The translations under genes were made by a program, and so were the position numbers. From the IMG/VR virus record IMGVR_UViG_3300025759_000072, positions 1-64,000 of that record: 64,000 bases of DNA, one strand, 5' to 3'. Below are positions 1 through 48,108 of the stretch, piece after piece. Positions within the stretch are counted from its first letter, which is position 1. The number at the start of each line of letters is the position of its first letter. The DNA comes from a virus. The notes beneath the pieces were generated by a model that ran no database searches, had not been told where the DNA came from, and saw only the letters and a list, made by a program, of their open reading frames with translations.

Positions 1-802
1 CAGGATCATTACTGCTAAAGTATGCGTTATTTGCGACCAGTGATCCAGAAGCAGTAACAATAAACTCTTGCATCAATGAACCACCTTCTTCTGTCAATAG
101 TTTCGTATCATCTTCAAGTAGCATCTCATATGCAAGAATATCGGTTGTGTTATTATCTTCAATAACATCGATGTTTGCATTACCTGTATTAATCTGCTCG
201 TTGCTATATGTAAACAACTCACAACGAAGATCGTATGTTTGTAGTCTACCTGTTTGATAGAATACTTGTTCATGCTCAACAAACATAATCTCAAACAGTT
301 TATCAACCATTGGAAAGTATATTAGATCGCCTTCTTGTGGTCGATTTGCAGTGATAGAATATCCATCACCAGTACCTTCTTCAAGAACAATCGAGTCGCC
401 TTCATATGTTTGATCAAGAAACTGTCTTGATGGCGCGTTTGTATCAGCATCTTCTGTAACATAGTTATAACCAACTTCAGTTGTTAGTTTCTCAGAAGCA
501 GCCTGATTGAATCTTTTTCTTGCTACTGTAAAGGTAACTTGATCGTTGATCTGTAGATTGAACTTGGAAAGAAAATCGCCCTCGCCTTCAAACCCTTCAA
601 CATTTTTAATGTACATCTCAAGGTCAACAGCATCATCAAATTTACGAAGCGTATCTTCACCAAACAATGGATCTTCACGCACGAATACGCTCGGAATATA
701 CTTGACATTATATCCGTAAATCTTGATTGCTTCCAAACAAAGGTCTTCAACGAGGTCTTGTTCACGACCATAATTGAAGTTGTTGAAGTATGCGTTGAGC
801 AT
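1..802 (-). CDS. gp14: Neck protein gp14 (runs off the left window edge)
   Basis: Not in ORF track; manual translation from ATG at 802: MLNAYFNNFNYGREQDLVEDLCLEAIKIYGYNVKYIP...DPLFGED...EMYIKNVEGFEGEGDFLSKF...RPQEGDLIYFP...FYQTGRLQTYDLRCELF; downstream of gp13; TAATG overlap with the upstream gene. Confidence 0.92.
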   Translation of the reverse strand, partial: MLNAYFNNFNYGREQDLVEDLCLEAIKIYGYNVKYIPSVFVREDPLFGEDTLRKFDDAVDLEMYIKNVEGFEGEGDFLSKFNLQINDQVTFTVARKRFNQAASEKLTTEVGYNYVTEDADTNAPSRQFLDQTYEGDSIVLEEGTGDGYSITANRPQEGDLIYFPMVDKLFEIMFVEHEQVFYQTGRLQTYDLRCELFTYSNEQINTGNANIDVIEDNNTTDILAYEMLLEDDTKLLTEEGGSLMQEFIVTASGSLVANNAYFSSNDP

Positions 803-1527
803 TATAATACCTTATTTTTTCTATTTCTCTCGGCAAGATCAGGACGTTTTCGACCCTTATTCCCATGCTCTTTATATTTATAATTTTCCACATCATCAGT
901 ATATCGCCATTCTTTCCATTTGTATTTTTTATTATGAAGTCGATAACTTATAGTTCCAATTTTTATATTTAATTCTTCAGCCGCATCAGATTTTAATTCA
1001 TAATATTTTCCATTAATGAAAAACGGTCTATATGTTCCTCGTTTTTTTAATAAAACTATTCTTTCTTGTCGAGACATAACAACACCATATCTTGGATTGC
1101 CATTTCCTGAATATTGTTCAGACCTTTTCATTTTATCATCATTACACCACAATTTCCCAGTATTTGCGTCAGATATTTTTTTACTATGTTCGATTGATCT
1201 TGGAGGTAATGTGTATCCACCTTTATTCATAAAAGTTTTACCGCCATCATGACAATTAAAAAATCTATCATCATCAACCATACCACAACGACGAATTGCA
1301 GTATGTTCCCAAATTCTTGCTTTTTCTTTAGTTTGGAATGTTTTTCTTATTTGAATAATATCAGGTTCACCATATTCTTTTCGGAAATGGTCTACTCTTT
1401 TTGATGATGTGAAATATGAAACCCAAAAATCGTCTGGATGACAACCTTTACCATAGCGAACACCATAATAGTATTTCTGGTGTTTGGACCATCCAATAAG
1501 ATATGTATATGGGGTATAAATAGACAT
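802..1527 (-). mobile_element. Free-standing homing endonuclease, GIY-YIG/Seg-like with NUMOD-type DNA-binding tail
   Basis: YTYLIGW...YYYGVR...YFTSS...ARIWE...FFN catalytic-type N-terminus; EHSKKISDANTGK and SGNGNPRYG NUMOD3-like segments; sits between gp13 and gp14. Confidence 0.75.
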
Positions 1528-1595
1528 GCTGATGCTCCTTGAAAGCGTTAGAGTGGTTGGGGACTGGTACTCCCGTGAACCACATTTTATCTATA
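1528..1595 (-). promoter_or_regulatory. Late-promoter variant (TATAGATA) plus stem-loop leader and AAGGAG RBS of the endonuclease
   Basis: Minus strand: TATAGATA-aaat-GTGGTT-cac-GGGA-gtaccag-TCCC-c-AACCAC-TCTAA-cgctttc-AAGGAG-catcagc-ATG. Confidence 0.7.
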
Positions 1596-1607
1596 AAAAT
1601 GGTACTT

Positions 1608-2351
1608 TTAACCTGTCATGTCATTGACGGGCAGACTGTAACTCACTATCATTTCTTCTTCGAGTTTTTGAATCTCTGCTTCAGCATCGTCATAAATCTT
1701 TGCACCATTGAACGTCAAACCACCAGGGAGTTGTACACCTTCAAATTTAGTAAGATTGCTTCCCCACTGACGTTTAATCAATGCTGTTGCATATCTTGCT
1801 AACCAACGATCACCCCATACATCAGAATATGTATTAGGATCTGTAATCGAATAACAGTCAACAACAATATACTCACCAACAAGAACATCAGTTCCCCATG
1901 ACATATCGATATGAAGTTTATTAACATGACGATTATAACGTAGTGGCTTCTTACCAACAAATAGTTCTTCTAAGAAAGAAACATGCTGCATTGCCATTAC
2001 GTATGTTACATATGAACTTGATGATAGATCAAATAGATCATTGAGATGAATCTGATATCGAACGCTAAAGAAGTTCGATGAGTTCATTGATTGACCAATA
2101 GGAACAACGGTATTCACACCAATAATATTCTGTGGTAATGTGATATATCCGTTATCAATATCGGTTTGTGTTACAACGTGTTTATACAGAATTCTTTCAC
2201 AACCATCGAAGTGATAATCCTGATAGTAGATGAGTGCTTCGTCAATACGGTCTTCTACCTGTTCATCATCGACGTTAATATCGATTACAGGATCGCCGAG
2301 TCTACGAAGGCAATATGCTTTGAACTCTGCACGAGTAGATGGGACTGCCAT
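1608..2351 (-). CDS. gp13: Neck protein gp13
   Basis: YCLRRLGDPVIDINVDDEQVEDRIDEA...WLARYATALIKRQWGSNLTKFEGVQLPGGLTFNG, T4-like gp13 motifs. Confidence 0.93.
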   Translation of the reverse strand: MAVPSTRAEFKAYCLRRLGDPVIDINVDDEQVEDRIDEALIYYQDYHFDGCERILYKHVVTQTDIDNGYITLPQNIIGVNTVVPIGQSMNSSNFFSVRYQIHLNDLFDLSSSSYVTYVMAMQHVSFLEELFVGKKPLRYNRHVNKLHIDMSWGTDVLVGEYIVVDCYSITDPNTYSDVWGDRWLARYATALIKRQWGSNLTKFEGVQLPGGLTFNGAKIYDDAEAEIQKLEEEMIVSYSLPVNDMTG

Positions 2352-2375
2352 GTGTATACTCCAGTCATTTTTTAT

Positions 2376-2383
2376 TATTTATA
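2376..2383 (-). promoter_or_regulatory. T4-type late promoter TATAAATA (gp13)
   Basis: Exact TATAAATA about 25 nt upstream of the gp13 ATG. Confidence 0.8.
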
Positions 2384-2395
2384 ATGACTAGAGTT

Positions 2396-3949
2396 TTATC
2401 TTGCTCTCGCGTATTTGAAGGGAGCTTCAGCAATGTGAATCGTCACGTAAGAGCCACCACTTGCGTTACCATTACCCTGTATGCTCCGTTCTTTACGTCC
2501 ATTTGAAAGTATATCAAAGTCACCATAGAAACTTTCCGCTGCATTGGACGTTAAACTAAGAAGTTCAGGGTTGGGTTTGTTGTAGGGAGTAGACGCGGCG
2601 TTCCACCAATTCCAGTCATACCCGGAAGCAGCGTCAATACGATGGTTGATACTAAGCGCTGGGCGGAAATCCAAAGGATCAAATGGACCATCGGTCGACC
2701 CGTTTCCAACGTATAATCCTAACTCAACAAATCCCGCAGTTTCTGGGATAACCAAATAATCCCGCGTTCCTGTTGCTTCCCCTGTGTCTATGTCAAAGGT
2801 GTTGGTCGTCACATTTTTAATTGCGACATCTACGGTTTCACCAACACTATTGTTAAACACGGTCAGTTTCCCCGCCGTGTATTCTGGATGGTACGAAATA
2901 ATGTCGCCGCCATTAGTACGGTCAAACAACAGAATAAACACTCGCGCATTACCCGCATTGTGCGTTACAGTCGTATCGGCACCATTTGTATGCGCCACAC
3001 TTCCCGTTTTAAAATACGTGTCGCAGTTAAATTCCGCTCCCATAAAAGCGTCACCACCAGATAGTGTCGGAAACGCGACACTGGTGCTTGAACTAAGCGC
3101 CACGCTATAGGCGTTGCTGTTATCGTGGCTGAATTGCCAATACCAGTTTTCTATACTATCTCGGTTCTTATAGACGCGAACATAATTTGTTGCGTTCGTC
3201 TCTGCGGCAAGTGTCGCGACAATGTTTGTCTCTGTATCGGTTACGACCGCAAACTGGGCGCTCGGATCAATGATCGCCAAGGCTGGTAGGTGCGCGGTGC
3301 AGAGGGGTTTGAAGCCGGTCGTTGGCGTCCCCGCGAACGCACTCGCACCAAAGTTCCAAGTCGCTGTTCCGAAGTGTCGCGACTGGAACGCGAAAAAGAT
3401 ATTACGGCTATCAAAGGTGTTTGTGAACGTCCCCTGACTTACCCCATTCTTGAAAAATTCGATAGACGTGGGAACAGCCGTGCAATCCACTTCAATGCGG
3501 ATCACATCCCCGGTCGTGTACGATGCACCATAGGCGGATGATGATCCGTCTATGTCCTTATTTCCACCTGAATTATAAACGGCATAATCCGCGCTGGAGT
3601 CCGTTTCAATAACCAACCCCTCGCCACAAAGTCCGGGGTTAAGAGACGCAGATGCTACGTCATTGTCCCATGTAATTTCGGCAACCCATTTACCGCCACC
3701 AAGTGTGTCTATCGGGATAGTGCCAGGAAGCCACCAATATGCTGCACCCGGATCACTTGCCGAAACAATTTTGGTATTCGCTTCTGATATTGTCCATGTG
3801 CTTGCTACACGCTCAACAAGAGTATTCAACACACAGTAATTCCCAATATTACGCACCACATGGTTCGTCGGGGAGTCGAGCAGTTGGTCTGTCGTATTTA
3901 AACTTACAGCGCCGAAATCGTTTGGTGTATTAATATGTGGTCGTGCCAT
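2396..3949 (-). CDS. SPRY/ConA-like virion adhesin, N-terminally short paralogue of 3949-7746 and 8997-12146
   Basis: DQLLDSPTN, YGASYTTGDVI...FFKNGVSQG, NFGASAF...LCTAHLP, YVGNGSTDGPF, C-terminal FKYARAR shared with paralogues. Confidence 0.65.
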   Translation of the reverse strand: MARPHINTPNDFGAVSLNTTDQLLDSPTNHVVRNIGNYCVLNTLVERVASTWTISEANTKIVSASDPGAAYWWLPGTIPIDTLGGGKWVAEITWDNDVASASLNPGLCGEGLVIETDSSADYAVYNSGGNKDIDGSSSAYGASYTTGDVIRIEVDCTAVPTSIEFFKNGVSQGTFTNTFDSRNIFFAFQSRHFGTATWNFGASAFAGTPTTGFKPLCTAHLPALAIIDPSAQFAVVTDTETNIVATLAAETNATNYVRVYKNRDSIENWYWQFSHDNSNAYSVALSSSTSVAFPTLSGGDAFMGAEFNCDTYFKTGSVAHTNGADTTVTHNAGNARVFILLFDRTNGGDIISYHPEYTAGKLTVFNNSVGETVDVAIKNVTTNTFDIDTGEATGTRDYLVIPETAGFVELGLYVGNGSTDGPFDPLDFRPALSINHRIDAASGYDWNWWNAASTPYNKPNPELLSLTSNAAESFYGDFDILSNGRKERSIQGNGNASGGSYVTIHIAEAPFKYARAR

Positions 3950-6900
3950 TATCGTGCTCTCGACTCTTTAAATGGATAGTCAGCCCAGGCAATACCGATG
4001 TAGGTAGCACTAGAACCGTTTGTGGACGTGCCCGTGGTTACAGGCTTGAACCCATTCGAGAAAAATTGAATAGAGTGAGTTGTAGATTCTGCGGAAGCGG
4101 TACTAGGTTGCAAGCGTGAGGGTAATGTGCCAGAGGGAGTAATATTGTAGGGCATTCGACCAGAGTCGTGCATTTCCCAATCTTGCCCCGCAGCACTTGA
4201 TTGCTTCAATATCACAGCATTTGGACGGAAATCGAGCGGGATGAATGTACCATCAGCATCACCGTTGCCAAAGTAGGAAAAGACTTTACAGTAGCCGGGG
4301 ACGGAGTGAAAACAGTAAGCAATATACGCTTGGTTCAACGTATTAACATCGGCTCCCGTACCTACAGAAAAGAGTGATGTCGTGGGAGCCGTGCTTTGCC
4401 AATAGAGCGCATTAACAGCAAAGGCGTTATTCAAATTAAGCTGACCGCCGCCTCCCCAACCATAAGCCTCATGACCTACTGCCCAGTTATCTGTACCAGT
4501 GTCAGTATTCTTGACGATAATGAATTCCGGCGCTTGACTCAAGCCGTGTCCAATTGTCGCGTTTGCACCTGTCCCTGTATAAGAAACGATTGAAAACCCC
4601 GCCGTTTGATTGGCGCTCACTGTCGACGTAATGCTGCCGTCCATGTTACTGGAACCAGCGCCGCCAGCCTTGAAGCACCATGCGACATAACTTTCTGCTG
4701 CTGTATTTACTTCATCAGTTGTACCCAATGTAAATCCACCAGAAACAAATGATTTTAAGTTTTCCGTTTGTGTATTAGCAGCTACTGTTGTATTTGTGTG
4801 TAATGCGTTATTAGGTCCACGTAACACATCATATAACTGATGTTTATCAGCAGCATCTCTATTCTTAATCCAAACCAGATCAGGCGTCCAGGCAGTTCCT
4901 GTACTATCATAACATTCACGAACTGATGTTTGCCCAGCATTTCCTTCATATAAAGAAGTAACGAAATACTTTGTTGGATCGGCGATTGTTGGTGCTGGAA
5001 GGTTCGCGGTGGAGATTGCTTTGAAGCCGGCCGGCGCGGTGTAATTCCAATTCGCTTCATCAATAATTTCTAAGAAGTCGTTAGGAAAGGTATTGTTAGC
5101 GTTCCGGTGGGCAATCAGAGTAACCTCGCCAAGCGCTGAAAGTAGATCGGTAAATGCCGCGTTTGTAGTCGTTCCGGCTTCTATTTCGCTCCGCGTTGCG
5201 CTGTTTTGTATCGTGTCGTCCACACCGAACCAGATAGCCCCGTTGTCCATATCTAAGAAAATCTGTACTCGGACTGTAGACGGTGAACCTGTAAAGGCGC
5301 TGCCGTACGCAGTGTTAACACTTGAAACCTTAGTGCCATCAAAACTTGAATATCCACGAACGTAAGTATCAGTAGTGCTCCCACCAGTTAAGTAAGTTGA
5401 AGCAATAAGGTTAGGGTTGCATACACCAATGATTTGCCCCGATCCGCCCGTCGAGGCTTGGGTGTATTCTAACTCTATGTAATATTTTCCACTCGTAACA
5501 AGGAAGTTTCCGAGCGTCCCACTATCTGCGTCGTATTCTGCTTTTTTATTGCCAAGCGTGTAACCAACAAAGTTCGGACCTTCGAAAACATTAGGGTTCC
5601 AGCGCTCAAGGTTGCCGTACCCGTTTGCCGCTGAGTTGGTCGGGCTGTCTAACAGTTGGTCGGTGGTAGTTAATCCGGAAGCGGCCCATGAAACCCCATC
5701 GTAGGCTTGTGTCGGGACAGTGAAATTACTGGTCCATATGGCTGTGCCCTTGACGAAAAGGATTTCATCCATCCAGCCAGCCCAAGTGCCAAGGTGGCCG
5801 TCCGTTCCTGCAATTTGCAGGACAGCCGTTCCATCATAATAGGTCGCGGAAGCAGATACCGCCGTCCCTAACTCCACCCCGTCAACGAAGAGATAATGGT
5901 TCGTGCCCGAACGGACAACGGCGACATGATACCAAGTGTCAGCGACGGGTGCCCAGGGTTCCGCACGGACCCAGTTCCGAGTCCCGGTGGTCCCGTCCGT
6001 TGAGTAGACAAAAACTAATGCCGCCTGACCAGCGCCCGATTGTGACCCGTCGTGTTCGTAGCCAAACTCGTAAGACCTATTATTGCCGATTATGTCCCAT
6101 TTAGCGATGAACGAAGCGTTGCCAACCGTACCGTTCCATCGAACCCAAGCTGCCAGTGTGAAGGCACCGGAACCGAGTTCAAAGTCTGCGTGATCGGCTA
6201 AAGTGAGGTAGTCTCCTGTGCCGTCAAAGTAGATCGCCGTAGTTCCAAATTTTGCTTGGTCGGTGTCGTGCTGGACATCCCCATTCGCCGTGATCGTCTT
6301 TCCCTTCGCGCTATCCGTGAACGTCGTCGAGGCGTCTGTTGTATTGGAATGGATGAGCAGCGTCGTATTCGGGTCAGCCGCCAGGGTCCAGCGAGCATCC
6401 TTGCCGAAATCCGCACTGTCCGCGAAGTCGAACCAGAAGCCGTTGGTGCCGAAGGTAAGACCGCTCGGGTCTATCGGATTCCAGTTCCCGTTCGCGTCAA
6501 ATCTCCCAAAAGAACTAGGTGTCCGCGCAATCCCATCGAAAATAAGTAATTCGGCAACGCCTCCATCGAAATAGCCATATGTCTGAATATACCCGATTTC
6601 AACGAGTTGGGTTGTCCCAAAATCCTGCGTTTCATTAAGCGCAGGCCATGTCGCAGAGTTCGTCGATGTGATTTGTTGGCCGTTAAGCCAGAGTTTTACG
6701 CGATCAGTATTAGTTGCTTCTGTCGTGTCTATCGTGACGGCAATATGTATCCATGCACCCGGATCACGTAGCTTTGGCGACCATGTAACATCCCAGGTCG
6801 TCGCGCCGCCTTCGACGAGGCTTGCGCGAGGATTTCCATCATAAATCTCGACGCGAGTGTAATTGTTGCCGTCTGTACCCCATGTCACTAGACCGCGATC

Positions 6901-33621: not shown

Positions 33622-34653
33622 TTACCTCTTATAATTATCGATTGATTCTTTTGTCAATGTCGTGACTTCTTGGAAAGACAAACCAATTTGAATTGATACT
33701 GGAACCTTTACAGTTTCTGAGGCTTGTTGTTCTTCTTCGCCGAGTTCATCTACAACAACTTCCTTTGTAAAGTATAATGGTTGACCTTCTGCATGGTAAT
33801 TAACCGAAACATTTTTTAATACAGATGGGCCAATATTAAACAAAAATTCATGGTGATGGAAATCAATTTCAAATTGTTCTGGATAATCATAGAAAAATTG
33901 AAGGAAACTACCAGCTCCTGCCGCTTGACTTGGAGCAGAATAGTATTTTAATAATTTAATAATATTCAAAATTGCTACAGATTCTTCAAAGTTTTTGGCA
34001 ACGACTTTCCATGAAAATTCGTGAACACGAAATTCTGGTTGAGAATATAATAACGCCATATATGGATTTCTTGCTAATCCAGCGCCGCCTAATGCTCCTT
34101 GACCATAAGGAGTTGCACCAGCAGCACCAGCTAATGTGTATACTCCATATGCTCCGGCTGTTTTCGCTGCTGAAGCAGGATCAGTTTTATCCCAAACTTC
34201 TTTTAATTTTTTACCTATAGTAGAAGCAGCGCCACCTGCAGCATCCAAACCTTTTGATAAATCTAAATTAAAAACAGCGTCAACAAGTTTATCAGCGTTA
34301 TTTCCTAAACTATTTATCGTACTTCTAAGTTTAGCGCCAGCAAGAGCGTTACCAATAGGACCGATACCCTCAGCGTTATATGTTTGATTATATGCAGTTG
34401 CTAAGTTTAATGGTAAAGGTAAAAATATTCTGGCCAAATCTGCATTTAGTAGATAATCTTGTTCTCGCCGCAAACTGCTTGATGATCTTTTTATGATACG
34501 AATAGCCATCCAATGATCTATTTCTTGTATATTTTCTGGAAAATAAAAACTTTCAGCAGAATTTGTTCCACCAAGAGCGGCAGCAAGTTCATCGTGTGCT
34601 GGTTTTTCATACGAAGCATTGTCTCCTAAAATTTCAGATGGTTTTTTGGACAT
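33622..34653 (-). CDS. gp48: Baseplate tail-tube cap gp48
   Basis: IFLPLP, NPYMALLYSQPEFRVHEFSWK, YPEQFEI, LSFQE; start moved to ATG at 34653 (AAGGA RBS, late promoter 34683-34690). Confidence 0.8.
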   Translation of the reverse strand: MSKKPSEILGDNASYEKPAHDELAAALGGTNSAESFYFPENIQEIDHWMAIRIIKRSSSSLRREQDYLLNADLARIFLPLPLNLATAYNQTYNAEGIGPIGNALAGAKLRSTINSLGNNADKLVDAVFNLDLSKGLDAAGGAASTIGKKLKEVWDKTDPASAAKTAGAYGVYTLAGAAGATPYGQGALGGAGLARNPYMALLYSQPEFRVHEFSWKVVAKNFEESVAILNIIKLLKYYSAPSQAAGAGSFLQFFYDYPEQFEIDFHHHEFLFNIGPSVLKNVSVNYHAEGQPLYFTKEVVVDELGEEEQQASETVKVPVSIQIGLSFQEVTTLTKESIDNYKR

Positions 34654-34690
34654 ATAAATAATCCTTGTAAACGGGGTTTGATTATTTATA
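34653..34690. promoter_or_regulatory. Two face-to-face late promoters for divergent gp48 and gp4
   Basis: TATAAATA on + at 34653-34660 and on - at 34683-34690. Confidence 0.8.
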
Positions 34691-35128
34691 ATGACTTCAC
34701 TCAAAGGCAGATATCGACCAACTCATCCACAGAAGTACAAAGGCGATCCGACGAACATTATCTATCGTAGTTCGTGGGAGTTAAAGTATATGAAGTGGTG
34801 TGATCATAATCAGGCTGTGATCCAGTGGCAGTCCGAAGAGTTTTCTATACCGTATCGTCATCCGATAGATGGTAAGGTGCATAGATATTTCCCTGACTTT
34901 CTTGTTAAAATAAAAACATCACATGATATCGTTGAGACATGGGTGATAGAAATCAAACCTATGTATCAAGTCAAAGAACCAAAGCCACAGAATCGTAAAA
35001 CAAAGAAGTATCTAACAGAAGTCAAGACGTATGCAATCAATCGTTACAAATGGGACTATGCTATTGAGTGGTGTAAAGATCGTGGATACAAGTTCATCAT
35101 ACTCACTGAGAAAGAGTTGAATGTTTAA
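34691..35128 (+). CDS. gp4: Head completion protein gp4 (TnsA-like nuclease fold)
   Basis: KYKGDPTNIIYRSSWE..WCD..HRYFPDF..IEIKP. Confidence 0.92.
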   Translation: MTSLKGRYRPTHPQKYKGDPTNIIYRSSWELKYMKWCDHNQAVIQWQSEEFSIPYRHPIDGKVHRYFPDFLVKIKTSHDIVETWVIEIKPMYQVKEPKPQNRKTKKYLTEVKTYAINRYKWDYAIEWCKDRGYKFIILTEKELNV

Positions 35129-45593: not shown

Positions 45594-46113
45594 TACAAAC
45601 TTCCTTGTAACCTTTCAGTCTATATCCTTCACCATATTGAACTGTTGCTTCTACTAACTTACATTTTTTATTCAAAACAACTTCCTGAACCTCACCATAC
45701 TTCGGCAATCGATGGGGTAATGGAATCTTGAGTTGATTATCAGTCTTTCCAATCTTTGTATTACACTTCATAGATGTTGTTGATGAAAACATCTCAGGCG
45801 ACACTCGGCGATAGATAGAATCTTTGGCTCTTGTAATAGCCCTATCACACGCCTCGTCTTCAGCCATGGATGTATCAAACACGAACGAAGAAATACCACG
45901 ATGCCATTCACCATCGACCTTGCTGCGAATAATAATAAGGCATTTCTTTGCACCATGAAAGTCAATTACCTTCCGCTTCTCAATATTCGTCTGTTCAATC
46001 TTCTTTACATGAACAGAAGAGACATCGCGGTCATAGTTACATTCACCATACGCTACTGTAGGAATGAGTAACAGAGGCGTAAACTTACTGTATCGAATGA
46101 GAGATTTTAACAT
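45586..46113 (-). CDS. Cys-containing exported hypothetical protein
   Basis: Signal-like LLLIPTVAYG; paired cysteines. Confidence 0.5.
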   Translation of the reverse strand: MLKSLIRYSKFTPLLLIPTVAYGECNYDRDVSSVHVKKIEQTNIEKRKVIDFHGAKKCLIIIRSKVDGEWHRGISSFVFDTSMAEDEACDRAITRAKDSIYRRVSPEMFSSTTSMKCNTKIGKTDNQLKIPLPHRLPKYGEVQEVVLNKKCKLVEATVQYGEGYRLKGYKEVCND

Positions 46114-46501
46114 CGATCTTATCGCTTTCCGGTTTCAACTTAGTTCTTGTTTGATACACTTTACCACCAAGTTCATATGTCACAAGGAATCCTTCAAGCA
46201 CCGTTTGGACTTCTGTGCGGTGTAGAGTCTTACACTCCTCAACATAGATCGTCGCTGTTGGAGCAGTGACTTTCTTGAACATCCTTTGAAAGATATCATC
46301 TGTGTTATAGATTTGGTTCGCACCCTTTGTGATCGGGATTACCTTTCTTATCATATCACATTTTTCATATGGTATCGATACTGTTGTGTTTCGAGTCAAG
46401 GGTTGTGTTTCAATGATCGTGCCAGATAATGTTTCAGCGTTTGCTTGGTCAATCATTAAGATTGATGTGAAAAACATAATGGATGCTAGTTTATTTTTCA
46501 T
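46085..46501 (-). CDS. Exported hypothetical protein (YcfJ-like without glycine zipper)
   Basis: Start reassigned to MKNKLA; IPYEKC...EECKT...GFLVTYELGG. Confidence 0.45.
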   Translation of the reverse strand: MKNKLASIMFFTSILMIDQANAETLSGTIIETQPLTRNTTVSIPYEKCDMIRKVIPITKGANQIYNTDDIFQRMFKKVTAPTATIYVEECKTLHRTEVQTVLEGFLVTYELGGKVYQTRTKLKPESDKIDVKISHSIQ

Positions 46502-46525: not shown

Positions 46526-46592
46526 TATAAATAGTGTTAGTCGCGGAGAGGCAACTCCCACTAACTCTAAACCTGTAAAGGAGGTCCAGCAT
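46526..46592 (+). promoter_or_regulatory. Late promoter plus stem-loop leader of the HNH endonuclease
   Basis: TATAAATA-gt-GTTAGT-cgc-GGAG-aggcaa-CTCC-c-ACTAAC-TCTAA-acctgta-AAGGAG-gtccagcat-ATG. Confidence 0.75.
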
Positions 46593-47120
46593 ATGACTAT
46601 ATATCACAATCACCACATCATTCCTAAACACATAGGTGGTACTGACGACCCATCAAATCTTGTTCGTTTGACTGTAGAAGAACATGCCGAAGCACATCAA
46701 AAACTCTATGAAGAACACGGTCGTTGGCAAGATTATTGCGCATGGAAATCACTCAGTGGTCAAATAACTGATTCTGAACGTAATATACTTCGTTCTAAGA
46801 ACAGAGATACCAGTTACATGCAATCCGAAGAGTATAGTAAGAAAGTATCGGAAGCATGTAAGGGAAGGTCTCCAACTAAAGGTTGTTTTCAAAAAGGACA
46901 CAAACGTTCCAAACAGTCTATTGAAAAACAGAAATCTAAAATAACTGGCAAAAAACGTGGACCTTACAAATACAATCATGAGAAATGTTCAAAAAAAGTT
47001 ACTGTTTATGGTAAAGAATACCCCAGTGTCGCCGCTGCTAAACGGGACACTGGGCACTCCTATTATACTATCATGCGGCTTCAGCCATCTCAATGGCAGT
47101 TTCAAGAGCCTTTGCTTTGA
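46593..47120 (+). mobile_element. Free-standing HNH homing endonuclease (Mob-like)
   Basis: HHIIPKHIGGTDDPSNLVRLTVEEHAEAH; NUMOD-like tail; true start MTIYH at 46593; inverted relative to neighbours. Confidence 0.88.
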
Positions 47121-48018
47121 GTTTGGAGTTATAACCATACCAAGCAGAGGTTAGGCGAGTGTCGTCAGAACGACCCAGAGTGTGGTCGGTCATGTAGGTG
47201 ACGGTATTGAATGCCGCCCAAAAAGTACCAGCACCAAACTCTGCACCAGGCTGAGTGTGAAGAACTTCCATTGCCTCTTTAGAGTTACGAGAGACAGCAT
47301 TTTCCTTGCCCTTCGCATTGGAGGTAACAGGGAAGATACGATTGAAGTACTCAACGATGTTATCGTTAGTGAACCGCTTGGAACCAAGGAACTGAGCAGC
47401 CTCCTTGTAGGTATCCAACTTCTCCTTAGCAACACCGAGTTGTGCTTTCACCTCATCGGCGTCGAAGACACGACGGTGATTGACCTTCACAGCGTAGTTA
47501 GTCACACCCTGAAGAGCCATCGAAAGCGTATTCCAGCAAACGACACGAGTCGGCGTCATCTTCACGTCAATGGTCTGACCATACTTGTGAGGATTAGAGA
47601 ACAGAAGGTACTGTTCAACAACATCGTTCTTAAACACTTCGAAAGCATCATTGACCTTCGCAAGTGCCCATACACGGGAACCATCAGTCAACGCACCAGC
47701 GGTATGCATTTCCATATCGCCAGCAGCAACGAAGTCATTAAAGAAATCGAATGCTTCGGTATTCTGAAGCGGATTCCAGTCTTCGCCGATAACGTCAAAG
47801 AACTTGTCATCGGAAGAACGGTAGAGAGCTTTCTTGCCAGGAACGACGATTTGTTCGCCATCAGAACCAGTAACGGTCATGTCACGAACTTCGACTTCCC
47901 AGTCAAGACCAGCCTTTTCGAGCATCTGCTCTGGAGTCAGATCAGAACTGACCGGAACACCAAGACCGTGCCACGGAACTTCACCTGCGTATGCCATTGT
48001 TTCAACTGCTGCAACCAT
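47071..48018 (-). CDS. DUF932 (LGT_TIGR03299-type) protein
   Basis: VPWHGLG..AGLDWEV..LQNTEAFDFF..TAGAL..TPTRVVCWNTL. Confidence 0.88.
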   Translation of the reverse strand: MVAAVETMAYAGEVPWHGLGVPVSSDLTPEQMLEKAGLDWEVEVRDMTVTGSDGEQIVVPGKKALYRSSDDKFFDVIGEDWNPLQNTEAFDFFNDFVAAGDMEMHTAGALTDGSRVWALAKVNDAFEVFKNDVVEQYLLFSNPHKYGQTIDVKMTPTRVVCWNTLSMALQGVTNYAVKVNHRRVFDADEVKAQLGVAKEKLDTYKEAAQFLGSKRFTNDNIVEYFNRIFPVTSNAKGKENAVSRNSKEAMEVLHTQPGAEFGAGTFWAAFNTVTYMTDHTLGRSDDTRLTSAWYGYNSKLKAKALETAIEMAEAA

Positions 48019-48108
48019 AATATATCTCCTGTTAGGTTGTTTCACTCAATCAATATAATAACTATAACTTATTTTGATAAAAAAGTCAATAGTTATTTTT
48101 AAAAAAGA

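What the first reader, a model, noticed from the sequence alone, without database searches (positions are those of the whole stretch)
1525..1595. One covarying structured leader sits in front of two unrelated homing endonuclease genes (here and at 46526-46595)
Seen: both free-standing endonuclease genes, one GIY-YIG-like and one HNH, 45 kb apart and on opposite strands, have the same leader layout: late promoter TATA(A/G)ATA, 6-bp stem (GTGGTT/AACCAC vs GTTAGT/ACTAAC), asymmetric C(A/G)C/C internal loop, 4-bp stem (GGGA/TCCC vs GGAG/CTCC), invariant TCTAA, 7 nt, AAGGAG, CAGCAT, and proteins starting M(S/T)IY. The stem differences are compensatory. Known: T4 I-TevI-type genes use a hairpin that hides the RBS on early transcripts; here the hairpin is downstream of the late promoter and does not include the RBS. 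Inference: a portable expression cassette or cis-regulatory RNA that travels with different nuclease domains.
Basis: partly seen in the sequence, partly recalled or inferred. Interest (0 to 1): 0.78.

Follow-up and report, generated by a model that had tools for sequence, protein, structure and literature searches.

The report
Antisense-folding control cassette of homing endonucleases
Both selfish DNA-cutting-enzyme genes in this T4-like phage start with the same portable ~90-base cassette, which also heads well over a hundred unrelated nuclease genes in uncultured phages. Its conserved fold fits the strand opposite the gene best, so it probably makes an antisense RNA that restrains the nuclease.

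Summary
Both leaders exist as described (1515-1595 minus strand; 46526-46604 plus strand) and are the only two matches in the 89-kb phage contig.

They belong to a large family. One strict pattern found at least 120 viral loci, and a covariance model found about 140 distinct copies, 1-13 per phage. They precede HNH, HNH_3, GIY-YIG and SegE-type genes. Rfam 15 has no match, 185,579 prokaryote genomes have none, and one divergent copy sits in cultured Caulobacter phage Cr30. Covariation is strong.

HEG-less relatives show that the insert begins within 4 nt of the promoter box.

The sense-leader reading is only partly right:
- Non-Watson-Crick cells are A·C (97), not G·U (4).
- The ribosome-site hairpin is stable only on the opposite strand (-7.1 vs -2.5 kcal/mol, 110/110).
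- The shared M-x-I-Y start is a nucleotide motif, TATTTAT, the mirror image of the late-promoter core.

My reading is two late promoters that face each other, with an antisense transcript covering the nuclease's ribosome site, as in IS10 RNA-OUT. That transcript often runs on toward a divergent neighbour gene.

No transcript data exist. Earlier agents of this scan reached the same reading on other genomes.

The parts
1588..1595 (-). Copy A: outer (sense) late-promoter-like box TATAGATA, one mismatch to TATAAATA. The predicted HEG mRNA start is about 1582-1583, at the base of P1.
   Evidence: Perfect TATAAATA boxes precede the structural genes of this contig. The start site is inferred from T4 late-promoter geometry.
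1553..1583 (.). Copy A: hairpin P1/P2. It is a 6-bp outer stem, a C-A-C opposite C1559, a 4-bp inner stem and a 7-nt loop.
   Evidence: Folds. Covariation across 101 copies. Stability is about equal on both strands.
1529..1551 (+). Copy A: helix P3, 8 bp when read on the + strand (antisense to the HEG). Its loop CCUUGAA is complementary to the HEG Shine-Dalgarno AAGGAG (1535-1540).
   Evidence: antisense fold, -20.6 kcal/mol against -15.9 for the sense strand. Family-wide asymmetry.
1515..1522 (+). Copy A: inner (antisense) perfect late-promoter box TATAAATA. It is the complement of TATTTATA, which spans the last base of HEG codon 2, codons 3-4 and the first base of codon 5. The predicted antisense start is G1528.
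   Evidence: TATTTAT is constrained at the nucleotide level across the family.
1584..1595 (+). Copy A: U-rich tail (AUUUUAUCUAUA) after the hairpin on the antisense strand. It is a possible weak terminator.
   Evidence: Family tail statistics. The simple terminator scan did not call it.
802..1527 (-). Copy A: free-standing homing endonuclease gene, 241 aa, starting MSIY. It is inserted between neck genes gp13 (1608-2351) and gp14 (2-802). The gp14 late box at 875-882 lies inside its 3' end.
   Evidence: In 78 of 80 relatives gp13 and gp14 are adjacent.
46526..46533 (+). Copy B: outer (sense) perfect late box TATAAATA, only 2 nt before P1. The predicted mRNA start, about 46539, falls inside the 5' arm of P1.
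   Evidence: The start site is inferred.
46536..46565 (.). Copy B: hairpin P1/P2, GTTAGT-CGC-GGAG ... CTCC-C-ACTAAC.
46567..46589 (-). Copy B: helix P3, 8 bp on the minus strand (antisense). Its loop is complementary to the SD AAGGAG (46578-46583).
   Evidence: The antisense fold is -22.8 kcal/mol, z -3.75, with 0 of 200 shuffles as good. The sense fold is -17.1.
46598..46604 (-). Copy B: inner (antisense) box, degenerate here. ATATATA replaces ATAAATA because codon 3 is ATA. The predicted antisense start is about 46592.
   Evidence: This copy is one of the minority that lack a perfect TATTTAT.
46593..47120 (+). Copy B: HNH homing endonuclease gene, 175 aa, starting MTIYHNHHIIPKH. It is oriented opposite to both neighbours, 46085-46501(-) and the DUF932 gene 47071-48045(-).
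46085..46501 (-). Divergent neighbour of copy B, 138 aa with a signal-peptide-like N-terminus. Its SD and ATG lie 35 nt beyond the hairpin on the antisense strand, with no late box of its own between them.

Best explanation
The two sites are members of a large family of a portable 85-90-bp cassette. The cassette forms the 5' end of free-standing homing endonuclease genes (HEGs) of several nuclease families in uncultured T4-like and jumbo phages.

Its parts, in order on the HEG strand:
- a late-promoter box
- hairpin P1/P2, with an invariant C-R-C opposite a single Y
- TCTAA
- the SD AAGGAG
- CAGC-ATG
- TATTTAT, from the last base of codon 2 through codon 4

TATTTAT is the mirror image of the late-promoter core, so the cassette is bracketed by two late boxes that face each other.

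Proposed mechanism:
- The outer box starts the HEG mRNA at or just inside the base of P1.
- The inner box starts an RNA on the other strand, at the complement of CAGC|ATG.
- That RNA folds into a stable 8-bp hairpin (P3') whose loop CCUUNNN is an anti-Shine-Dalgarno, followed by P1'/P2' and a U-rich stretch.
- It is fully complementary to the HEG 5' UTR, SD and AUG.
- It therefore damps HEG translation through RBS occlusion, cleavage of the duplex and/or promoter collision, as IS10 RNA-OUT does for RNA-IN.
- In about two thirds of cassettes the same transcript points at a divergent neighbour gene whose start codon lies 20-76 nt beyond the hairpin. There it probably also serves as that gene's promoter and leader.

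Shown here: the family, the covariation, the strand asymmetry, the nucleotide-level constraint on TATTTAT, the insertion boundary and the neighbour orientations.

Inferred: both start sites, the existence of the antisense RNA, its 3' end and its repressive effect.
For: Family size:
Nearly all have the same layout.
- The CM adds variant copies, with 1-13 per record in all 18 large records searched.
- The own contig holds only the two copies.

Covariation:
- 92% of cells are paired, against 30-50% when the partners are slid.
- 344 cells changed on both sides, against 6-33 in the slid controls.
- Mutual information picks out only these helices.

Strand:
- There are 97 A·C against 4 G·U cells. In the 12 core pairs the count is 23 against 3, or roughly 12 independent events against 1.
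- On the antisense strand, R30:Y52 and columns 60-67/75-82 all pair.
- P3 energy is -2.5 kcal/mol sense and -7.1 antisense. Antisense is better in 110 of 110 copies, including 37 of 37 that my pattern did not select.
- Those variants show compensatory changes at column pair 63:79: A-U, U-A and G-C.

Inner box:
- Codon 2 encodes 9 different residues but ends in T in 99 of 102 genes (p = 9e-43).
- Codon 3 is ATT in 80 of 87 Ile codons, against a 41% background.
- Codon 4 is TAT in 90 of 95 Tyr codons, against 71%.
- TATTTAT is kept in 10 copies that lack the outer box.
- It is kept in 22 of 26 cassettes whose upstream neighbour is co-oriented.
- Both boxes share the same ATAAATA-N4-T-G(+1) geometry (column counts).

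Window copies: the antisense folds are -20.6 and -22.8 kcal/mol, against -15.9 and -17.1 for the sense strand.

Precedent within this genome: another facing pair of perfect boxes sits at 34653(+)/34690(-), between two divergent genes.

Analogue: IS10 RNA-OUT is a 69-nt asRNA made from a promoter facing pIN, and it is complementary to the transposase TIR (PMC5006887).
Against: - No transcript evidence. The RNA libraries found hold the phage only as unstranded contigs, and none covers 1400-1800.
- The simple terminator scan calls nothing on either strand.
- In divergent contexts the neighbour gene starts 20-76 nt beyond the hairpin, with no late box of its own in 97 of 109 cases. The hairpin therefore cannot be a strong terminator there, and a discrete ~65-nt RNA is doubtful.
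- P1/P2 is equally stable on both strands, so it may act in the sense mRNA too.
- Perfect TATAAATA is not more frequent in this contig than base composition predicts: 16 seen against about 13 expected by my own estimate. Promoter status rests on position only.
- Copy B's inner box is degenerate.
- Copies are related, so cell counts overstate independent events.
Confidence: 0.55

Rival explanations
1. Promoter and leader for the neighbour only. The inner box and the antisense-strand fold exist to restore expression, and a stabilising 5'-terminal stem-loop, for the host gene that the insertion cut off from its own promoter. Overlap with the HEG ribosome site is incidental and does not regulate the nuclease.
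For: - 78 cassettes have a divergent upstream neighbour, against 40 co-oriented.
- That neighbour's start codon lies 20-76 nt beyond the hairpin, usually with no other late box: 97 of 109.
- P3' begins 1 nt from the predicted 5' end, the position of a classic 5' stabiliser (inference).
- T4 HEGs are known to embed promoters for downstream host genes (PMC2988022).
Against: - The inner box is kept in 22 of 26 cassettes whose upstream neighbour is co-oriented. Copy A is one of these, and there the transcript would only run antisense into gp13.
- A neighbour leader would not need its first hairpin to be the exact complement of the HEG SD and AUG.
- Any such transcript is still a perfect antisense to the HEG TIR.
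Confidence: 0.2
2. Sense leader. P1/P2 is a 5'-terminal stabiliser or protein-binding site of the HEG mRNA, and P3 mildly masks the SD. In read-through transcripts the promoter box AUAAAUA pairs with UAUUUAU after the AUG (helix P0) and closes off the ribosome site, as in I-TevI and mobE.
For: - P1/P2 is stable on the sense strand at -9.2 kcal/mol and starts at the predicted +1 in most copies (spacer 5 in 58 of 99).
- The fold of copy A with its flanks draws P0.
- The T-even precedent is described in PMC2988022.
- Dassa et al. 2009 proposed this for metagenomic HEG hairpins (PMC2677866).
Against: - A·C greatly outnumbers G·U, which is the wrong way round for a sense RNA.
- Sense P3 is only -2.5 kcal/mol.
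- TATTTAT persists in 10 copies without the outer box, and the outer box persists in 11 without TATTTAT, so P0 is not obligatory.
- With spacers of 2-4 nt (39 copies, including both window copies at 4 and 2 nt) the predicted late start falls inside P1, by up to 3 nt at the shortest spacings.
- P0 is seven A-U pairs only, and no P0 appears in the fold of copy B.
Confidence: 0.15
3. A DNA-level element. The hairpins form in single-stranded DNA or as a cruciform. They would serve as a recombination hot spot or cassette end for shuffling nuclease genes (a late-promoter analogue of PeSLs), or as a protein-binding site.
For: - The cassette sits exactly at the insertion boundary and is shared by unrelated nuclease domains.
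- G·T wobble is tolerated in DNA hairpins too (general knowledge).
- PeSL cassettes in T4-type phages are thought to mediate modular shuffling (abstracts of PMC2839356 and PMC4122927, listed).
Against: - Recombination homology needs no base pairing, yet stems covary with little sequence identity.
- The promoter-like boxes, the predicted +1 geometry and the anti-SD loop fit an RNA better.
- The invariant C29 and C31 bulges are not explained either way.
Confidence: 0.07

Closest known systems
IS10/Tn10 RNA-OUT acting on RNA-IN (PMC5006887, read)
   Same: - A mobile-element nuclease gene whose translation-initiation region is covered by a small, stably folded RNA.
- That RNA comes from a promoter facing the gene's own promoter, at the 5' end of the coding region.
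- The loop or 5' part of the RNA is complementary to the SD and AUG.
- The antisense RNA is diffusible and could act on other copies.
   Different: - The setting is lytic phage homing endonucleases and T4-type late promoters.
- The RNA has two hairpins rather than one.
- The cassette is shared by unrelated nuclease families.
- The transcript may continue into a neighbour gene.
- Nothing here is shown experimentally.
RBS-masking hairpins with embedded late promoters of T-even and Aeh1 HEGs: I-TevI, I-TevII, I-TevIII, segB, mobE (PMC2988022)
   Same: - HEGs of T4-type phages with a late promoter, an RNA structure and a consensus SD close together.
- The apparent purpose is to restrict nuclease synthesis.
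- A late promoter for the downstream host gene is embedded in the HEG (gp14 box at 875-882).
   Different: - In those systems a very stable sense hairpin hides the SD, and the late start removes its 5' arm.
- Here the sense SD helix is weak, at -2.5 kcal/mol.
- The big hairpin lies between the promoter and the SD.
- The selected fold is on the other strand.
- seg43(25) of Aeromonas phage 25 also has a hairpin upstream of a free SD, and it remains unexplained.
Hairpins with TATAAATA and two MEME motifs in 5' UTRs of metagenomic free-standing GIY-YIG and Vsr-like HEGs in 'fractured genes' (Dassa et al. 2009, PMC2677866)
   Same: - Aquatic metagenomic phage HEGs of different families.
- A hairpin upstream of the start in 15 of 16.
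- A late box in 10.
- Conserved motifs that pair in the stem.
- The invading element brings its own control regions.
- This may be the same element.
   Different: - Their sequences are only in figures, which are not held here, so identity could not be tested.
- They read it as an I-TevI/mobE-type sense hairpin.
- They report no family-wide covariation, no strand analysis and no inner box.
Phage cis-antisense RNAs: P22 sar (68/69 nt, against ant) and cyanophage S-PM2 CfrI (~225 nt, linked to HEG F-CphI and psbA) (review PMC12197685)
   Same: Small phage-encoded antisense RNAs. sar covers a ribosome site, and CfrI is associated with a HEG in a T4-like cyanophage.
   Different: There is no sequence or structure relation. 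Those are single loci rather than a portable multi-copy cassette. CfrI is antisense to the HEG body and the end of psbA, not to the TIR.
PeSL mobile regulatory cassettes of T4-type phages (PMC2839356 and PMC4122927; abstracts only)
   Same: A composite promoter-plus-stem-loop motif that flanks variable genes and travels with them.
   Different: PeSLs carry early promoters and terminator stem-loops and are proposed to act as recombination substrates. Here the promoters are late boxes, they face each other, and the RNA fold covaries.

Membership tests
Any Rfam 15 family | A match to a curated covariance model | tested here: not met
   cmscan in E-value mode over 5 loci holding 7 copies, including both window copies, gave nothing at the leaders.
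T-even/Aeh1 HEG RBS-masking hairpin | A stable sense-strand hairpin sequesters the Shine-Dalgarno | tested here: not met
   Sense P3 averages -2.5 kcal/mol, and most of the SD lies in its loop.
T-even/Aeh1 HEG RBS-masking hairpin | The late promoter lies in the 5' arm of the masking hairpin, so late transcripts cannot form it | tested here: inconclusive
   - The box lies 2-5 nt upstream of P1, not inside the SD helix.
- A 7-bp A-U helix P0 (box with TATTTAT) could play this role.
- Each half of P0 persists without the other in 21 of 110 copies.
T-even/Aeh1 HEG RBS-masking hairpin | A free-standing or intron HEG of a T4-type phage with its own late promoter and consensus SD | tested here: met
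   Neck genes gp13 and gp14 are present, TATAAATA boxes sit before the structural genes, and AAGGAG lies 7-9 nt before the ATG.
IS10 RNA-OUT-type cis-antisense control | A promoter at the 5' end of the coding region that faces the gene's own promoter | tested here: met
   This is met at the sequence level only. ATAAATA on the opposite strand spans the last base of codon 2 through codon 4, is under nucleotide-level constraint, and has the same spacing to a T-G(+1) as the outer box. Promoter activity was not tested.
IS10 RNA-OUT-type cis-antisense control | The antisense RNA forms a stable stem-loop that presents bases complementary to the target TIR | tested here: met
   P3' is 8 bp with loop CCUUNNN, averages -7.1 kcal/mol, is better than the sense strand in 110 of 110 copies, and shows compensatory changes.
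IS10 RNA-OUT-type cis-antisense control | A discrete short transcript with a defined 3' end | tested here: inconclusive
   - The tail after the hairpin is U-rich, with at least 5 U in 8 nt in 75% of copies.
- No terminator was called by the simple scan.
- Neighbour genes follow closely.
IS10 RNA-OUT-type cis-antisense control | The antisense RNA is made and lowers translation of the nuclease | not testable with these tools
   Only unstranded contigs from RNA libraries were available, and none covers the leader.
GIY-YIG homing endonuclease (product of copy A) | A match to a GIY-YIG catalytic-domain model | tested here: not met
   - The Pfam scan at E up to 0.01 returned only I-TevI_DNA-bd, below its cut-off.
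- The Pfam GIY-YIG search of the whole contig hit only 75337-75597.
- PHROG 314 'homing endonuclease' matches at 3e-16.
- The gene is a HEG, but the catalytic family is not proven.
HNH homing endonuclease (product of copy B) | A match to an HNH model | tested here: met
   PF01844 scores 23.2 bits, over its cut-off, in the genome search. PHROG 655 matches at 1.4e-18.

The most novel reading that the evidence does not exclude
The cassettes could form a phage-wide, trans-acting antisense network. The 5' third of the predicted antisense RNA (complement of CAGCAUG...AAGGAG) is nearly identical between cassettes, so each RNA could pair with the ribosome sites of all HEG cassettes in the genome (up to 13 in one phage) and in co-infecting relatives.

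That would give copy-number control like IS10 multi-copy inhibition. It could also let a resident phage silence the homing endonucleases of a superinfecting competitor.
Probability: 0.15. Interest if true: 0.85.

Novelty: new variant of a known kind. Interest (0 to 1): 0.7.

Why it matters
Homing endonucleases are the main selfish elements of large lytic phages, and how they are kept harmless is known only for a few T-even genes.

A single exchangeable control cassette used by hundreds of unrelated nuclease genes, with its selected fold on the opposite strand, would have three consequences:
- It would add a new, widespread phage RNA family.
- It would provide a first antisense-based control system for homing endonucleases.
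- It would explain how these genes invade new sites without disrupting neighbours, because the cassette brings promoters for both directions.

It is directly testable. One divergent copy sits in a cultured phage of a tractable host, Caulobacter phage Cr30. The key mutations are synonymous.

Tried and rejected
1. Chance similarity of two leaders: rejected.
2. Known RNA family: no Rfam hit. Four literature searches (a fifth call failed on term syntax) found only Dassa 2009, the T-even hairpins, CfrI, sar and IS10.
3. M-x-I-Y as a protein motif (the 'GIY' strand): rejected.
   - Residue 2 varies but its third base does not.
   - The true GIY motif often lies further in.
   - HNH proteins carry the same start.
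4. Pseudoknot or extra long-range pairs: mutual information shows none.
5. Expression evidence: seven RNA runs hold small shares of the phage. The four laid are contigs without strand information, and none covers 1400-1800, so this is uninformative.
6. Simple terminator scan: nothing called. The tool cannot handle the bulged stem.
7. HEG-less allele for copy B: DUF932 relatives are at most 75% identical and lack the 138-aa neighbour, so no boundary could be drawn.
8. Cultured phages:
   - blastn of a typical leader found nothing useful.
   - The CM found a copy only in Cr30 among 10 relatives.
9. Prokaryote genomes: 0 exact matches of a 25-base pattern.
10. Protein clustering to count nuclease families failed, because shared NUMOD3 modules link everything.

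Full report
**What is there.** The window is the first 64 kb of an 89.4-kb uncultured viral contig.
- It has T4-type neck genes gp13 and gp14.
- Perfect TATAAATA boxes sit just upstream of many genes, including gp13 and gp14.
- Its nearest cultured relatives are only 44-60% identical in gp13: Stenotrophomonas DLP6, Caulobacter Cr30, Sinorhizobium phiM12/phiN3, cyanophages, and Methylophilales and Pelagibacter myophages.
- Copy A (minus strand) heads a 241-aa gene inserted between gp13 and gp14.
- Copy B (plus strand) heads a 175-aa HNH gene that lies opposite to both of its neighbours.
- A third GIY-YIG gene, outside the window at 75337-75597, has no such leader.

**It is a large family.**
- All but one sequence (present in two loci, L054 and L087) show the same layout: late box, 6-bp stem, C-R-C, inner stem, loop, single Y, closing arm, TCTAA, SD, CAGCATG and ATG-NNT-ATT-TAT.
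- A covariance model from 101 distinct copies finds only the two window copies in the own contig, at E 6e-22 and 9e-20.
- It also finds further variant copies in the loci.
- It finds 1-13 copies in each of 18 large viral records, including 13 in a complete 360-kb phage.
- Rfam 15 has no match.
- A 25-base version of the pattern has no match in 185,579 prokaryote genomes.
- Of ten cultured relatives only Caulobacter phage Cr30 has a copy. It is divergent and lies upstream of an annotated homing endonuclease.
- The products carry HNH, HNH_3, GIY-YIG, SegE-type and NUMOD3 modules.
- Several leaders precede truncated ORFs of 11-56 aa.

**The structure is real.**
- RNAalifold and my own pair counts agree: 92% of cells are paired, against 30-50% when partners are slid.
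- 344 cells changed on both sides, against 6-33 in the slid controls.
- Mutual information singles out exactly these helices and shows no pseudoknot.
- C29 and C31 are invariant although my pattern did not force them.

**The cassette is the mobile unit.**
- In 78 of 80 relatives, gp13 and gp14 are 5-17 nt apart.
- The closest HEG-less allele reads TAAAAGTACC-ATG. The window reads TAAAAGTACCAT, then TTTTATAGATA....
- The insert therefore begins at most 4 nt before the promoter box. It ends by supplying a new late box (875-882) and start region for gp14.

**The fold belongs to the other strand.**
- Read on the HEG strand, non-Watson-Crick cells are A·C (97) rather than G·U (4). In the 12 core pairs the count is 23 against 3, or roughly 12 independent events against 1.
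- A·C on one strand is G·U on the other.
- On the antisense strand, R30:Y52 always pairs. The 'invariant' TCTAA and CAGCAT become the two halves of an 8-bp helix (columns 60-67 with 75-82).
- 45 copies were not selected by my pattern. In nearly all of them this helix is predicted, and several show compensatory changes at column pair 63:79: A-U, U-A or G-C.
- Taken separately, P1/P2 is equally stable on both strands (-9.2 and -9.7 kcal/mol).
- P3 is -2.5 kcal/mol sense and -7.1 antisense. Antisense is better in 110 of 110 copies, including 37 of 37 unselected variants.
- The window copies follow the same rule: -20.6 and -22.8 kcal/mol antisense, against -15.9 and -17.1 sense.

**The shared M-x-I-Y start is a nucleotide motif.**
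- Residue 2 takes nine identities, yet its codon ends in T in 99 of 102 genes (p = 9e-43).
- Ile is ATT in 80 of 87 cases, against a 41% background.
- Tyr is TAT in 90 of 95 cases, against 71%.
- TATTTAT is the complement of ATAAATA, the conserved core of the outer box.
- Both boxes are followed by four bases and then T-G, so both predict a G start. For the outer box this is the first base of P1. For the inner box it is the complement of C in CAGC|ATG (T4 geometry is from general knowledge).
- 88 of 110 copies have both boxes, 11 only the outer and 10 only the inner. An obligatory pairing between the two boxes (an I-TevI-like mask) is therefore unlikely.
- Copy A has an imperfect outer box and a perfect inner box. 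Copy B is the reverse.

**Context.**
- Of 143 distinct cassettes, 58 lie opposite to both neighbours and 28 lie in the same direction as both. The upstream neighbour is divergent in 78 and co-oriented in 40.
- In a stricter re-parse that kept 51 divergent cases, the neighbour's start codon lies 20-76 nt beyond P1 in 44 of them.
- 97 of 109 cassettes analysed have no other late box within 130 nt beyond the hairpin on that strand.
- The inner box therefore probably also drives that neighbour gene, and the hairpin cannot be a strong terminator there.
- The inner box is nevertheless kept in 22 of 26 co-oriented cassettes such as copy A.
- The contig holds another facing pair of perfect boxes between two divergent ordinary genes, at 34653/34690. 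Crossed late promoters are thus a habit of this phage.

**Mechanism.**
- I favour (0.55) a convergent-promoter sense/antisense unit. The antisense transcript has a 5' hairpin presenting an anti-SD loop and covers the HEG leader, SD and AUG.
- It would restrain the nuclease, as IS10 RNA-OUT restrains RNA-IN (PMC5006887).
- In many contexts the same transcript would serve the neighbour gene.
- The asymmetry lets one DNA sequence give an open ribosome site on the mRNA and a stable hairpin on the antisense RNA.
- The rivals are a neighbour-only promoter and leader (0.2), a sense leader or I-TevI-type mask (0.15) and a DNA-level element (0.07).
- No transcript evidence could be obtained. The 3' end is unresolved. 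The invariant C-R-C bulges remain unexplained.

**Prior knowledge.**
- T-even and Aeh1 HEG hairpins with embedded late promoters are known (PMC2988022).
- Dassa et al. 2009 saw hairpins, late boxes and two paired motifs in metagenomic HEG leaders. This may be the same element, but their sequences are not held here.
- Antisense RNAs sar and CfrI are known in phages.
- I found no description of this family, of its strand asymmetry or of the inner box.
- After I had reached the antisense reading, the scan's own notes showed that earlier agents reached the same reading on other genomes. These are unchecked AI notes, not independent evidence.

Noticed in passing
window 34653-34690: Two perfect TATAAATA boxes face each other 22 nt apart, at 34653(+) and 34690(-). 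Each abuts the start codon of the other's divergent gene (ORFs 34691-35128 + and about 33622-34652 -). This is crossed late promoters with overlapping 5' UTRs in a non-HEG context.
   Followed up: partly
window 875-882 (minus strand): The perfect late box that precedes gp14 lies inside the 3' end of the copy-A endonuclease ORF. The inserted cassette therefore supplies the promoter and start region of the downstream host gene.
   Followed up: partly
L243:2381-3190: A relative at 68% gp13 identity has a different HNH gene inserted at the same gp13/gp14 junction (810-nt gap). It has no leader, and its start overlaps the gp13 stop (TAATG).
   Followed up: no
own contig 75337-75597 (minus strand; outside the window), locus L003: A third, short (~144 aa) GIY-YIG gene has no leader. 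Its start region overlaps the end of the upstream gene.
   Followed up: partly
L014, L026, L036, L092, L105, L107, L015: Intact leaders precede ORFs of only 11-56 aa, for example a GIY-YIG cut at residue 30. The cassette appears to outlive the nuclease gene.
   Followed up: no
G008 (360,683-bp record with direct terminal repeats; loci L150, L158, L165, L167-L176): A complete jumbo phage carries 13 copies of the cassette, so the family is not confined to ~170-kb T4-like genomes.
   Followed up: partly
window 1515-1595 and 46526-46604: The imperfections are reciprocal. Copy A has an imperfect outer box (TATAGATA) and a perfect inner box. Copy B has a perfect outer box and a degenerate inner one (ATATATA).
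   Followed up: no
alignment A2 columns 29-31 and 52 (window 1575-1577 with 1559; 46542-46544 with 46559): C29 and C31 are invariant (100/101 and 101/101) and flank a covarying R:Y pair. On the antisense strand they are two bulged G. No explanation tried here accounts for them, and a protein-binding site is possible.
   Followed up: no
window 1-6000: Short, near-identical contigs of this phage occur in marine, freshwater and aquatic RNA libraries. They cover gp14, the HEG body at 783-1292, gp13 and the tail-fibre region. They are unstranded, and DNA carry-over is not excluded.
   Followed up: partly
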